Positions 1 to 3,000 of a stretch of DNA of 35,570 nt are shown here, piece after piece (the stretch's first letter is position 1; each line of letters begins with the position of its first letter). The position numbers are program-made. Origin of the DNA: Escherichia coli (GTDB taxonomy: Bacteria; Pseudomonadota; Gammaproteobacteria; Enterobacterales; Enterobacteriaceae); assembly GCF_003334385.1 (NCBI RefSeq), contig NZ_QOWN01000045.1, one strand, 5' to 3'.

Positions 1-3000
1 GGCCACCACACTTCGCTGGTGGCAGCTTTGATCAGGAAAACATAGCGCCCGCCTTTATCACGCATGGCACTGGCATGCTTCATGATGTAACGCATGCCGG
101 TGATGTATTGCCCCTCATGCTGACTGGCGCGGCTGTATGGGGGATTACCAAAGGCAGCACCTTTAAGCTCCGCAAGGCGTTCTGACCAGTCATGCGCCAG
201 CGCGTTGTCTTCCGCCGTGTAATACGCAGCACATTTGGCGTTATCACCGTCAGTGAACAGATCCAGAACAAACGGGCCAAACAGGGTGTTAATTCCCCAG
301 AAAATGTTGTCCGGCGTGCGCCACTGATCGCCCACTTCCTTCAGTTCATGGGCTGGTTTGTTCCGCAGTTCCACCAGCGCCTGGCAATATTTATTACTCA
401 TTAAGCCCCCACGTAATTCCCTGAGAGATACCACTCTTCACCTGATGCAGCCCGCTTACTGCTTTTCCGTAAACACCGTTCACGACGCGCCAGAAAATTG
501 TTTCGTTCTGGCTGGGAGTGGCTTTCACGGAATGCCGCCATCCACACCGTTGCAGCACGACGGTATAAGCCCCTGGACTCCAGTTCTTCCGCCTGGCGGG
601 TCAGGCACAAAATCACCCGCGGGTCGTTAGTGCCGACATAGAAATTGCGCACAGGTCTGGTTTCACGAACTGGTTGTGGTTCCGGCTCCTGCGCTCTCTC
701 AGTCAGGCGCGGGAAATGTCTGCGTGTATCTCCTTCACAACGGTGAGCCACACGCCCACTCTGACGTAACTTGCTTGCTGACTGCAGAACGCGCTGCCGT
801 GAGTAACCAGCAAAAGCATCTGCAATGTCTCCGGAAGTACACCCCGGATGGGCTTCAATGAATTTCTGAACGTCATTTAACAGACTCATGATCACCCCCT
901 GAATCCTGCCGGGATCTGGCTGTAGTCCACGTTGTCGTAACTGGATTTGAAGTACGGGTCTTCGCGTTTTTCGGTGTACGTGCTGACGGACGGCGATAAG
1001 CGCAGGGAAAGCTCATCCCATTTTTCCCGCAGCTTCGACGGGCTGAGCACGTTACGGCACCAGAACGGATCGCGGCTGACGCGGCTGTACATCTCGCAGA
1101 TTTGTTTGTGAGTACGACCATCCTGCACACACATCAGGCGAATTTCGTTTGCCCAAGCTGTCCAGTTCGGTTCTTTGGGACGAACCACCTCGCCGTCACA
1201 TTCGGAGGCCTGCTCGTACAGGGCGATGATTTTTTTCCAGAGCCACTGTGCGCAGGTCAAATCATCCTGCGTTCCCCACTGGCGCTTTTTAGGGCTGAAT
1301 ACAACCGCATCAGGATGGCGAGTTAAAAAATCCTGTTCATCCGTCTGCGTGTCCGGTTGCGAAGCGTCCGGACGAGAAGGTTTTTTATCTGACGGATCAT
1401 GTTTTGATTTTACTGACGGATCCCCGCCAGATTCTGACGGGTGAAAACCCGCTTTTTTGCCAGATTTCGACGCATCAAATTTTGACGGGACAGATTTTGA
1501 TGCGTCAGATTTTGACGGGTCAGAATCTGACAGTTGAGAAAATGCCGCTGCCTGAAGCTTCGCAACGTTAAGCTGATAAACATTCGACGCATTGCGGTTA
1601 CCCTGGCGACGCGCCTTACGCGTTAACCAGCCTTCTGCTTCCAGCCGTGCGATAGCCGTTCTGACGGTACTCATCCCCGCGCCAATCTGACGGGCAATGG
1701 TTTCAATTGATGGCCAGCACACACCTTCGTCATTACTGAAATCAGCCAGGCGGGCCATAATTGCCACGCTGGATAATTTCATGCCTGACGCAGCGCAACC
1801 ATCCCATACATAGCCGGTTAATTTAGTGCTCATGACCGACCTCTATTTCCCTGAATTTACGACGAAACTGTTCGAGCGGGCTGAAGCACTCATGCTCATA
1901 GCCTTCACGGAGGTAGATAACCCGTTGTGTTTCCGGCTCCCAACGAATGACTCTGACGGGCACTCCGTAGTGATCTTTGAACCAGCGGTTAACTTGTCGC
2001 AAAGGACTGTCTCCTTCTGCCGGTTGAAATCACCCACAGCCCACTCTGCAAAGCTGTGGGTTACAATTTCCCTGTCACCTGGTACATTTACTGCATAGCA
2101 ATACTCCACCTTCGCTTTTCCACCCGGTACAGGAAGCGCAATCAGTTGCGAGCGACGGTAGTGTGTTGTTAAACTGTTCATGCGTTAGTTTCTCCACAGT
2201 CACGACACGCCACGGCGCCCGGAGCTGCACACTCGCGGGCGTCACTCTTTTCTGGAGCGCAAAAGATTTTGTAGACCAGTGCTGCATGCTCCTGGAGCTT
2301 CGAAATTGACAGATACAACTCATCATTAATTGCTGTCTGCTCGTGTGGCTCCACTACCCCATCTTCGATTGCCGAACGAATCTGCTTTGAGTAACTCCCG
2401 ATCTGTTCGATGACTTCCAGCAGGCGCTGGTTTATATCGGCGTTCTCTACTTCCTCAATTTCAGGAAGCGATACGAACACCCCACCAGCAGACTGTGCGA
2501 CAGCATCCGCAATGTAGTGAGTGCCAGCTGCGCGCTGTAAAACCATTGCCCATCCCAGCGGGAAAATCTGATCGCCATCGGCACGAAGGCGGTTAAATAA
2601 TGCGTTCTCTGTTACATCCAGCCAGTCAGCAGCTTCAGCGTAACCACCCGGCAACGCCGCGATAGTTTTTCTGACAGCTTTCACGTACCACTCAGGCTGT
2701 TTTTCTACTTTCCAGTGATGCTTACCCACGGCTATCTCCTTAAAACTGTGGTTACTTTTCATCTGATGAATCTTTAATCTTTTGAAAAATATCTGGACGT
2801 AATTTTTCTTTTGATATGCCAGTGGTCTTTTCAATGAATATCGAGAGCTTTGCAGGGGGACGCTTTTCTCTGTTCAACCAGTTCCAGACATGTTGTTGCT
2901 TTACTAAATGACCGCTGCTGGCTGTGAGCTTCCGAGCCAATTCTGATTGACCACCAGCCAGAGCGATTGCCTCCGATAAGGCTAATTGCTCAGGTGTCAT

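What the first reader, a model, noticed from the sequence alone, without database searches (positions are those of the whole stretch)
1385..1532. Iteron array embedded in the O-like replication gene: putative prophage origin
About eight copies of a short direct repeat (tctgacgg, ttttgacgg, tttcgacgc, ttttgatgcg, tctgaca) occur within roughly 150 bp inside the 313 aa replication initiator gene. They encode the repetitive Ser/Asp/Lys-rich linker (SDPSKSDASKSVPSKFDASKS). This mirrors lambda, where ori iterons lie within gene O and are bound by the O N-terminal domain.
Basis: partly seen in the sequence, partly recalled or inferred. Interest (0 to 1): 0.45.

Follow-up and report, generated by a model that had tools for sequence, protein, structure and literature searches.

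The report
Replication origin inside a prophage initiator gene
The short repeats are real and are very probably the prophage's replication origin, written into the linker of its lambda-O-like initiator gene; this is a familiar lambdoid design using a repeat sequence I did not find described.

Summary
The rep gene (window 892-1833, minus strand, 313 aa) carries five tandem 15-bp units (consensus TCA AAA TCT GAC nnn, window 1456-1530). A sixth unit lies at 1426-1437, and two CCGTCAG half-units sit in an A+T-rich patch (1381-1425) that has two GATC sites. Nine of ten matches to the unit pattern in 35.6 kb fall here, against 1.15 expected.

The origin interpretation is well supported by comparison but untested by experiment. 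In 55-65 distinct homologues from many Enterobacterales genera, synonymous sites are fixed in the repeats and the A+T-rich block. They are scrambled in the adjacent N-terminal domain of the same genes. The block is the least stable 30 bp of the whole gene in 54 of 64 homologues. The layout is colinear with lambda: winged-helix N-domain, iterons, A+T-rich tract, then a C-domain 31-39% identical to lambda O.

It differs from lambda in four ways: an unrelated N-domain (Pfam HTH_36), a different palindromic iteron, a 15-bp period, and no P-like helicase loader gene next to rep.

Verdict: a new member of a known kind, of modest interest. The module is common, with a full-length gene in 1576 of 5426 complete E. 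coli genomes and a fossil copy in K-12 CPS-53.

The parts
892..1833 (-). rep gene, 313 aa: winged-helix N-domain, repeat-encoded linker, lambda-O-like C-domain
   Evidence: ORF. PHROG 391 'replication initiation O-like', E 2e-134. 98-99% nucleotide identity to the rep genes of Shigella phages SfIV and SfII.
1540..1833 (-). coding region of the N-terminal winged-helix DNA-binding domain (aa 1-98), the presumed iteron binder
   Evidence: Pfam HTH_36, aa 23-70, E 7.5e-11. AlphaFold model with pLDDT 85: recognition helix aa 54-66 and beta-wing aa 70-88. Nearest folds are MarR-type winged helices.
1456..1530 (-). array of five tandem 15-bp iterons: TCAGATTCTGACCCG, TCAAAATCTGACGCA, TCAAAATCTGTCCCG, TCAAAATTTGATGCG, TCGAAATCTGGCAAA
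   Evidence: Codon choice is fixed across 269 units from 55 distinct homologues.
1438..1455 (-). spacer AAAGCGGGTTTTCACCCG (A-tract and T-tract); its complement forms a terminator-like hairpin on the + strand
   Evidence: GGT TTT SAC CCG is conserved at the nucleotide level. By eye, in the homologue spacer sequences, the hairpin and T-run are not conserved.
1426..1437 (-). proximal iteron TCAGAATCTGGC, a near-perfect palindrome present in all homologue groups
   Evidence: The codons GAA TCT are used by 98-100% of the sequences that carry Glu and Ser at those two positions, in 65 sequences.
1381..1425 (-). conserved A+T-rich block GGG GAT CCG TCA GTA AAA TCA AAA CAT GAT CCG TCA GAT AAA AAA: candidate unwinding element with two CCGTCAG half-sites and GATC at 1419-1422 and 1395-1398
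   Evidence: mean majority-codon fraction 0.91, against 0.53 in the N-domain. GC minimum of the gene. GATC positions.
1384..1413 (.). least stable 30-bp duplex window of the whole rep gene (nearest-neighbour dG -34.2, gene mean -42.4 kcal/mol)
   Evidence: The same position is the minimum in 54 of 64 distinct homologues.
1000..1338 (-). coding region of the C-terminal domain homologous to lambda O (aa 166-278)
   Evidence: 39% identity to lambda O and 35% to phi80 gp15 by tblastn. BLASTP against lambda O gives E 9e-27.
1843..2181 (-). DUF4222 ORF directly upstream of rep, a constant neighbour in the annotated relatives listed
   Evidence: PHROG 1170. Annotated next to rep in the listed E. coli, Klebsiella, Rahnella, Pantoea and Ewingella records.
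401..895 (-). YfdN-like gene (winged helix plus PerC/ANR-like C-terminus) directly downstream of rep; not a helicase loader
1..401 (-). 5' part of a phage N-6-adenine methyltransferase gene; it runs off the window
   Evidence: TIGR01712, E 1.6e-49, above the curated cut-off.

Best explanation
Window 1381-1533 is the replication origin of this SfII/SfIV/CPS-53-type lambdoid prophage, embedded in the linker-coding part of its own initiator gene. The proposed mechanism is as follows. Rep is made from the early rightward operon (cro, cII-like gene, DUF4222, rep). Its N-terminal winged-helix domain binds, probably as dimers, to the near-palindromic 15-bp iterons (core TCA-RAW-TCT-GA): five tandem copies plus one conserved proximal copy. 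The resulting nucleoprotein complex destabilises the adjacent conserved A+T-rich block (1381-1425), which is the least stable duplex in the gene. The lambda-O-like C-terminal domain then brings in the host helicase. No P, DnaC or DnaB gene lies next to rep, so the helicase-recruitment step is unknown. Shown here: the repeats, their DNA-level constraint, their conservation and variable copy number, the low-stability block, colinearity with lambda O and ori-lambda, and the predicted winged-helix fold. Inferred: binding, unwinding, helicase recruitment, and any role for the two GATC sites.
For: (1) The repeats are statistically real and localised. (2) The DNA is under constraint. In 269 units from 55 distinct homologues, Ser1 is TCA in 93% (17% elsewhere in the same genes). 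Lys is AAA in 167 of 167 (60% elsewhere). Asn is AAT in 28 of 28 (37%). Ser2 is TCT in 88% (10%). Phe is TTT in 83% (28%). Asp is GAC in 83% (48%). (3) The same genes provide an internal control. In the N-domain, codons of conserved residues are the same as in the window in only 22-56% of cases. Their mean majority-codon fraction is 0.53, and no column reaches 0.9. In the block the mean is 0.91, with 9 of 13 columns at 1.0. The neighbouring GGN codon varies freely, so the segment is old rather than recently spread. (4) The least stable 30-bp window of the whole gene starts about 10 nt after the GATCC anchor in 54 of 64 distinct homologues. In Gilliamella the block is replaced by a pure A/T run. 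(5) The layout is colinear with lambda. The four lambda iterons lie at codons 117-145 of O, before the homologous C-domain; here the iterons lie at codons 102-136. PMC7466680 states that lambdoid origins consist of iterons plus an AT-rich tract in the middle of O. (6) The N-domain and origin travel as one module joined to different C-terminal domains: lambda-O-like, or 'conserved phage C-terminal domain'. The block is linked to this N-domain: 74 of 80 viral contigs carrying the block encode it, and the other six are cut by a contig end, truncated or frameshifted. (7) Some relatives with this N-domain and iterons are followed by a lambda-P homologue (39% identity, E 1e-46), which confirms that the family are O-type initiators.
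Against: There is no experimental evidence for binding, unwinding or autonomous replication. No helicase loader or helicase gene is adjacent. There are no DnaA boxes near the array. The 15-bp period is shorter than the 20-24 bp spacing of lambda iterons and is out of phase with the DNA helix. The A+T-rich patch is short and only moderately A+T-rich (35% GC over 40 bp). Sequence conservation shows a cis-acting DNA function but does not by itself say that the function is origin firing.
Confidence: 0.8

Rival explanations
1. The repeats are only a by-product of a low-complexity, slippage-prone Ser/Lys/Asp protein linker and have no function as DNA.
For: The repeats are in frame and encode a flexible-looking linker. 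Copy number varies from 3 to about 15 between homologues, as expected for slippage.
Against: Synonymous positions are fixed across genera, while the flanking N-domain of the same genes is scrambled at synonymous sites. Amino-acid variants use the codon nearest to the DNA consensus: Asn AAT 28 of 28, Glu GAG 21 of 22. The units are palindromic, which a protein linker does not need.
Confidence: 0.04
2. The conserved DNA is mainly a module-boundary sequence: a patch of homology kept at the junction between exchangeable N- and C-terminal modules that promotes recombination among mosaic lambdoid phages.
For: The block sits exactly where different C-terminal domains are joined to the same N-domain.
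Against: It does not explain the palindromic iterons, the low duplex stability, the position-specific pattern of constraint (a free GGN next to invariant codons), or the positional match to ori-lambda. It is also compatible with an origin that happens to supply the homology.
Confidence: 0.07
3. The array is a cis-acting site for another purpose: an autoregulatory operator or roadblock for Rep, an mRNA structure, an antisense RNA, or a partition or packaging site.
For: The single strand folds better than shuffles (z -4.8). A terminator-like hairpin plus T-run lies on the antisense strand at 1438-1451. Iterons in plasmids often also serve for autorepression.
Against: There is no Rfam family; the one hit scores 28.6 bits against a gathering score of 97. 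By eye, in the homologue spacer sequences, the hairpin and T-run are not conserved. Conservation is of sequence, with no compensatory change. No promoter-like site was found. Autoregulation would be an added role of origin iterons rather than an alternative.
Confidence: 0.07

Closest known systems
ori-lambda within gene O of phage lambda and Stx phages 933W and P27
   Same: The origin lies in the middle of the initiator gene. Direct repeats with internal dyad symmetry are followed, in the direction of transcription, by an A+T-rich tract. The repeats encode the inter-domain linker. The C-terminal domain is homologous (31-39% identity). The number of iterons varies, 4 in lambda and 6 in Stx phages.
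   Different: The N-terminal domain is Pfam HTH_36, not the lambda-O N-domain, and there is no alignment before aa 70. The iteron is TCARAWTCTGA, not ATCCCTCAAAACGAGGGA. The period is 15 bp, not 20-24 bp. No P gene is adjacent. A 45-bp block, nearly invariant across the homologues, with two GATC sites takes the place of lambda's AT-rich tract.
Origins inside the initiator genes of phi80 (gene 15), phage 82 and P22 (gene 18)
   Same: From established knowledge (Grosschedl and Hobom 1979; Backhaus and Petri 1984; recalled, not read here): each lambdoid replication type has its own repeats inside its own initiator gene. phi80 gp15 shares the C-domain (35% identity).
   Different: The N-domain of phi80 gp15 does not match this one (one search aligns only aa 167-278). 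I did not compare the iteron sequences of those phages.
Iteron plasmid replicons (pSC101, R6K, P1 oriR, F, RK2)
   Same: A winged-helix Rep protein, an array of direct repeats and an A+T-rich unwinding element form a compact replicon. P1 oriR also has GATC sites in its unwinding region (recalled knowledge, not tested).
   Different: The iterons are inside the rep coding sequence. No DnaA boxes were found. The period is 15 bp rather than about 22 bp. The C-domain is phage-O-like rather than a second winged helix.

Membership tests
lambdoid origin embedded in an O-type initiator gene | Origin repeats lie inside the initiator gene, between the regions coding for the N- and C-terminal domains | tested here: met
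   The iterons lie at codons 102-136 of 313. The lambda iterons lie at codons 117-145 of 299.
lambdoid origin embedded in an O-type initiator gene | Three or more direct repeats, each with internal dyad symmetry | tested here: met
   There are six full units. Several match on both strands one base apart, giving GTCA-N5-TGAC.
lambdoid origin embedded in an O-type initiator gene | A+T-rich, easily melted tract next to the iterons on the downstream side | tested here: met
   GC is 35% at 1380-1419, the lowest value in the gene. The least stable 30 bp of the gene is here, and in 54 of 64 homologues.
lambdoid origin embedded in an O-type initiator gene | C-terminal domain homologous to lambda O | tested here: met
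   39% identity over aa 166-277 by tblastn. BLASTP E 9e-27.
lambdoid origin embedded in an O-type initiator gene | Repeats are under selection as DNA and are conserved in homologues | tested here: met
   Codon fixation in the repeats and block, against scrambled synonymous sites in the N-domain of the same genes.
lambdoid origin embedded in an O-type initiator gene | The initiator N-domain binds the iterons, and the fragment supports replication | not testable with these tools
   Only a confident winged-helix model is available. EMSA, footprinting and replication assays are needed.
lambda-type replication module in the strict sense (O plus P, Pfam Phage_rep_O N-domain) | N-terminal domain of the lambda-O family (Pfam Phage_rep_O) | tested here: not met
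   The Pfam scan returns HTH_36, GntR and MarR-like hits only. BLASTP against lambda O aligns only from aa 70 onward.
lambda-type replication module in the strict sense (O plus P, Pfam Phage_rep_O N-domain) | P-type helicase loader gene immediately downstream of the initiator gene | tested here: not met
   The downstream genes are YfdN-like (PerC/ANR) and an N6-adenine methyltransferase. A P homologue is present only in some relatives, L033 and L066, and probably L051 and L067.
lambda-type replication module in the strict sense (O plus P, Pfam Phage_rep_O N-domain) | Iteron sequence of the lambda type (ATCCCTCAAAACGAGGGA, spacing 20-24 bp) | tested here: not met
   The lambda repeats were recovered. 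Here the unit is TCAAAATCTGAC with a 15-bp period.
iteron plasmid replicon | DnaA boxes beside the iterons | tested here: not met
   No TTWTNCACA match (one mismatch allowed) lies within 1250-2100, and the count in the whole window is at chance level.

The most novel reading that the evidence does not exclude
This may be a distinct, P-less replicon class spread across Enterobacterales. In this reading, a single Rep protein with its internal origin suffices. The conserved C-terminal tail (D/N-Y-S..P.GFR-G/S) recruits the host helicase or primosome directly. It is shared by Reps with unrelated central domains, and in the loci sampled it goes with the absence of an adjacent loader gene. The nearly invariant 45-bp GATC-bearing block would be a dedicated unwinding element, or a host-factor or SeqA/Dam-controlled element, tied to the phage-encoded adenine methyltransferase often found downstream.
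Probability: 0.15. Interest if true: 0.6.

Novelty: new member of a known kind. Interest (0 to 1): 0.3.

Why it matters
It places the probable origin of a very common enterobacterial prophage replication module. The full-length gene is in 1576 of 5426 complete E. coli genomes. It is also in Shigella serotype-converting phages SfII and SfIV, and a fossil copy sits upstream of yfdO in E. coli K-12 CPS-53. NCBI's pipeline (PGAP) names the gene only 'helix-turn-helix domain-containing protein', and the one phage record I inspected in feature detail (SfIV) lists no origin feature. The 15-bp iteron consensus and the nearly invariant 45-bp block are ready-made markers for annotating origins in such prophages. 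They also serve for designing replication-defective lysogens or mini-replicons. The module gives a clean natural example of a coding sequence carrying a second, DNA-level code.

Tried and rejected
DnaA boxes: none near the array.

Rfam: only one chance-level miRNA hit over the palindromes.

Sequence search of solved structures: only marginal MarR hits. NCBIfam has no replication family for this protein.

Literature: I searched for the iteron and block sequences, for SfII/SfIV origins and for yfdO. Nothing described this origin. The library lacks most subscription-journal papers, so earlier descriptions cannot be excluded.

Plasmid records: matches are mostly prophages in megaplasmids, mislabelled chromosomes, or phage-sized circles. 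pKqq_SB1124_5 (44 kb) has no plasmid replicon type shown and carries DUF4222, rep and a methyltransferase. None of this shows that the module replicates autonomously as a plasmid.

Covariation between the recognition helix and the iteron: homologues with STVIT instead of STVRT in the recognition helix carry TCAGATTCTGAACGT-type units. However, the proximal iteron TCAGAATCTGG is almost unchanged in all groups. I therefore treat this as suggestive and not as proof of co-evolution.

Dam link: a crude motif scan finds an adenine-methyltransferase-like ORF within 2.5 kb downstream in only 35 of 62 loci. GATC is not enriched in the window. The GATC idea is kept as a weak inference only.

The extra CCGTCAGA copies in the N-domain coding region (1660, 1686) and at 1952: no N-domain codon column shows elevated codon conservation, so they are probably chance.

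Antisense terminator-like hairpin at 1438-1451: by eye, in the sequences, it is not conserved.

Full report
**What is in the sequence**

The finding lies in a 313-aa ORF on the minus strand (892-1833).
- Five units are tandem (window 1456-1530).
- An 18-bp spacer follows (1438-1455).
- A sixth full unit, TCAGAATCTGGC, lies at 1426-1437.
- Two half-units, CCGTCAG, lie at 1413-1419 and 1389-1395.

TRF finds period 15 with 4.3 copies, and period 30 with 85% matches. The repeat finder puts six copies in register.

The pattern TCRRAWTYTGNY has 10 matches in the 35.6-kb window against 1.15 expected. Nine of them lie at 1426-1531. TYTGACGG gives 9 against 2.3 expected. Several units match on both strands with a one-base offset, so each is a near-palindrome GTCA-N5-TGAC.

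**What the gene is**

- The best PHROG family is 391, 'replication initiation O-like' (E 2e-134).
- Pfam finds only an HTH_36/GntR/MarR-like winged helix at aa 23-81.
- An AlphaFold model of aa 1-100, built on 42 homologues, has pLDDT 85. It shows a classic winged helix with the recognition helix at aa 54-66 and a wing at aa 70-88. MarR-type proteins are its nearest solved folds.
- Residues 166-278 are 39% identical to the lambda O C-terminal domain and 35% to phi80 gp15. BLASTP against lambda O gives E 9e-27 and aligns only from aa 70 onward.
- The gene is 98-99% identical in DNA to the rep genes of Shigella phages SfIV and SfII and several E. coli phages.
- A copy covering at least 80% of the gene is present in 1576 of 5426 complete E. 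coli genomes, where PGAP calls it 'helix-turn-helix domain-containing protein'.
- E. coli K-12 CPS-53 keeps window 135-1600 at 98.4% identity without gaps. The cryptic prophage therefore retains the repeat region upstream of the annotated yfdO fragment but has lost the first ~78 codons of rep.

**Gene context**

The gene sits in an early operon: a cro-like ORF, a cII-like gene, DUF4222, then rep. The cII-like and DUF4222 assignments come from PHROGs. The cro assignment rests on the ORF and on the matching SfIV annotation. Downstream are a YfdN-like PerC/ANR regulator and a phage N6-adenine methyltransferase. No P, DnaC or DnaB gene is adjacent.

**Comparative test of the interpretation**

I collected relatives as follows.
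- Four phage loci, L001-L004.
- 65 prophage loci from 65 contigs of one-genome-per-species bacterial assemblies. They span Citrobacter, Kosakonia, Yersinia, Proteus, Providencia, Rahnella, Erwinia, Pantoea, Tatumella, Gilliamella and other genera.

Every complete homologue has a 15-bp array at the same position, with 3 to about 15 copies.

The decisive result is codon usage. In 269 units from 55 distinct genes:

| Residue in unit | Codon in repeats | Share in repeats | Share in the rest of the same genes |
|---|---|---|---|
| first Ser | TCA | 93% | 17% |
| Lys | AAA | 167 of 167 | 60% |
| Asn variants | AAT | 28 of 28 | 37% |
| second Ser | TCT | 88% | 10% |
| Phe variants | TTT | 83% | 28% |
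| Asp | GAC | 83% | 48% |
| Glu variants | GAG | 21 of 22 | 45% |

The N-domain of the same genes is an internal control with the same phylogeny. At residues identical to the window, the codon is the same in only 22-56% of cases. The mean majority-codon fraction there is 0.53, and no column reaches 0.9. The repeats are therefore constrained as DNA and not merely as a peptide linker.

**The conserved block downstream of the array**

From the proximal iteron onward, the sequence GAA TCT GGn GGG GAT CCG TCA GTA AAW TCA AAA nnn GAT CCA TCA GAT AAA AAA is almost invariant in 63-65 distinct sequences. This holds even in groups whose tandem units have drifted.
- The mean majority-codon fraction is 0.91, and 9 of 13 columns are at 1.0.
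- The adjacent GGN codon varies freely, which argues against a recent sweep of the segment.
- In the window this block is 1381-1425. It contains the GC minimum of the gene (35%).
- It also contains the least stable 30-bp duplex window (1384-1413; dG -34.2 against a gene mean of -42.4 kcal/mol).
- The same position is the minimum in 54 of 64 homologues. In Gilliamella the block is replaced by a pure A/T run.
- A scan of viral contigs for the block found 80 loci. Of these, 74 encode this same N-domain family. The remaining six are cut by a contig end, truncated or frameshifted.

The block and the N-domain are therefore inherited together. This N-domain-plus-repeat module is joined to at least two unrelated C-terminal domains.

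**Comparison with lambda**

In a lambda-type phage the four 20-bp iterons lie at codons 117-145 of O. They sit just upstream of the C-domain that is homologous to ours, and O is followed by the P gene. PMC7466680 states that the lambdoid origin consists of O-binding iterons plus an AT-rich tract in the middle of gene O. It also reports that Stx phages have six iterons, which add 13 residues to O.

The present gene has the same order: DNA-binding domain, iterons, A+T-rich tract, C-domain. It also shows the same copy-number plasticity. The differences are these.
- An unrelated N-domain family.
- A different iteron sequence.
- A 15-bp period, against 20-24 bp in lambda.
- No DnaA boxes.
- No adjacent loader gene.

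Some relatives do have a lambda-P homologue right after rep: L033 and Gilliamella L066, and probably L051 and L067 (39% identity, E 1e-46). This supports the family being true O-type initiators.

**Mechanism, and how much of it is shown**

Shown: the repeat anatomy, the DNA-level selection, the low-stability block, the colinearity with ori-lambda, and the winged-helix fold.

Inferred:
- Rep dimers bind the palindromic iterons.
- The resulting complex melts 1384-1413.
- The C-domain recruits the host helicase by an unknown route.
- Any contribution of the two GATC sites (1395, 1419) is a weak inference. GATC is not enriched in the window, and a methyltransferase-like ORF is detectable downstream in only 35 of 62 loci.

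**Rivals**

- A pure protein-linker explanation is contradicted by the codon data.
- A module-boundary homology patch fits the location. It does not explain the palindromes, the duplex instability or the position-specific constraint, and it is not exclusive of an origin.
- An RNA or antisense element is not supported. There is no credible Rfam hit. By eye, in the sequences, the hairpin at 1438-1451 is not conserved, and conservation is of sequence rather than of pairing.

**Novelty**

The principle is textbook. I found no description of this particular iteron or block in the searchable literature, and the SfIV record I inspected lists no origin feature. I rate it a new member of a known kind and of modest interest. 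The most interesting open question is how a P-less O-type initiator loads the helicase.

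Noticed in passing
window 892-960 (last ~22 codons of rep); also the C-termini of L001, L002, L004, L006, L011 and others: A conserved C-terminal tail, (D/N)Y(S/T)..P.GFR(G/S), is shared by Rep proteins whose central C-domains are unrelated. The last 33 aa also match the Rep proteins of mEp460, SfV and Stx2c phages. Loci with this tail have no loader gene after rep. Loci whose Rep ends in a W...L tail (L033 and L066, probably also L051 and L067) are followed by a lambda-P homologue. The tail may be a host-helicase or primosome docking peptide.
   Followed up: partly
window 1843-2181 (-): A DUF4222 ORF (PHROG 1170, function unknown) lies directly upstream of rep here. It does so too in the annotated E. 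coli, Klebsiella, Rahnella, Pantoea and Ewingella relatives listed. It may be part of the replication module.
   Followed up: partly
L193 (E. coli K-12 MG1655 2472122-2473587) = window 135-1600: The K-12 cryptic prophage CPS-53 retains the whole repeat and A+T-rich region at 98.4% identity. The region lies in what is annotated as the yfdO-yfdP intergenic space. The first ~78 codons of rep are deleted, and yfdO is annotated only as a 122-aa C-terminal fragment.
   Followed up: yes
window 8787-10040: An ORF of 387 aa at 8787-9950 (+), presumed to be the integrase from its position (not scanned against any family), abuts tRNA-Thr(CGU) at 9965-10040 (-). If so, the prophage ends near 10 kb and the rest of the window is probably host chromosome.
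   Followed up: no
window 1438-1460 (+ strand): A terminator-like hairpin, CGGGTGAAAACCCG followed by CTTTTTTG, lies antisense to rep inside the origin spacer. By eye, in the sequences, the T-run and stem are not conserved in homologues, so it is probably incidental.
   Followed up: partly
L062 and L063 (Tatumella prophages), rep codons ~105-200: The array is greatly expanded, to about 15 units arranged as alternating 15-mers that form 30- to 45-bp super-repeats. They encode PQGPKSGLSESEGLKTGPSE repeats. L063 keeps the conserved GATCC block; in L062 the first GATC is lost (GAA CCG...PEPSVNSKQDP...).
   Followed up: partly
L091 (IMG/VR contig 2636416133_000014): This rep homologue appears frameshifted within the iteron array; the upstream reading frame switches to the QNLT frame. 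This is consistent with slippage in the repeats or a sequencing error.
   Followed up: no
window 3805-4725 (-): A 306-aa ORF lies next to the repressor gene. It has repeated 'GVI(T/S)xEE' segments and a C-terminal region that looks BRCT-like by eye. It may be a prophage accessory or defence gene and was not analysed.
   Followed up: no
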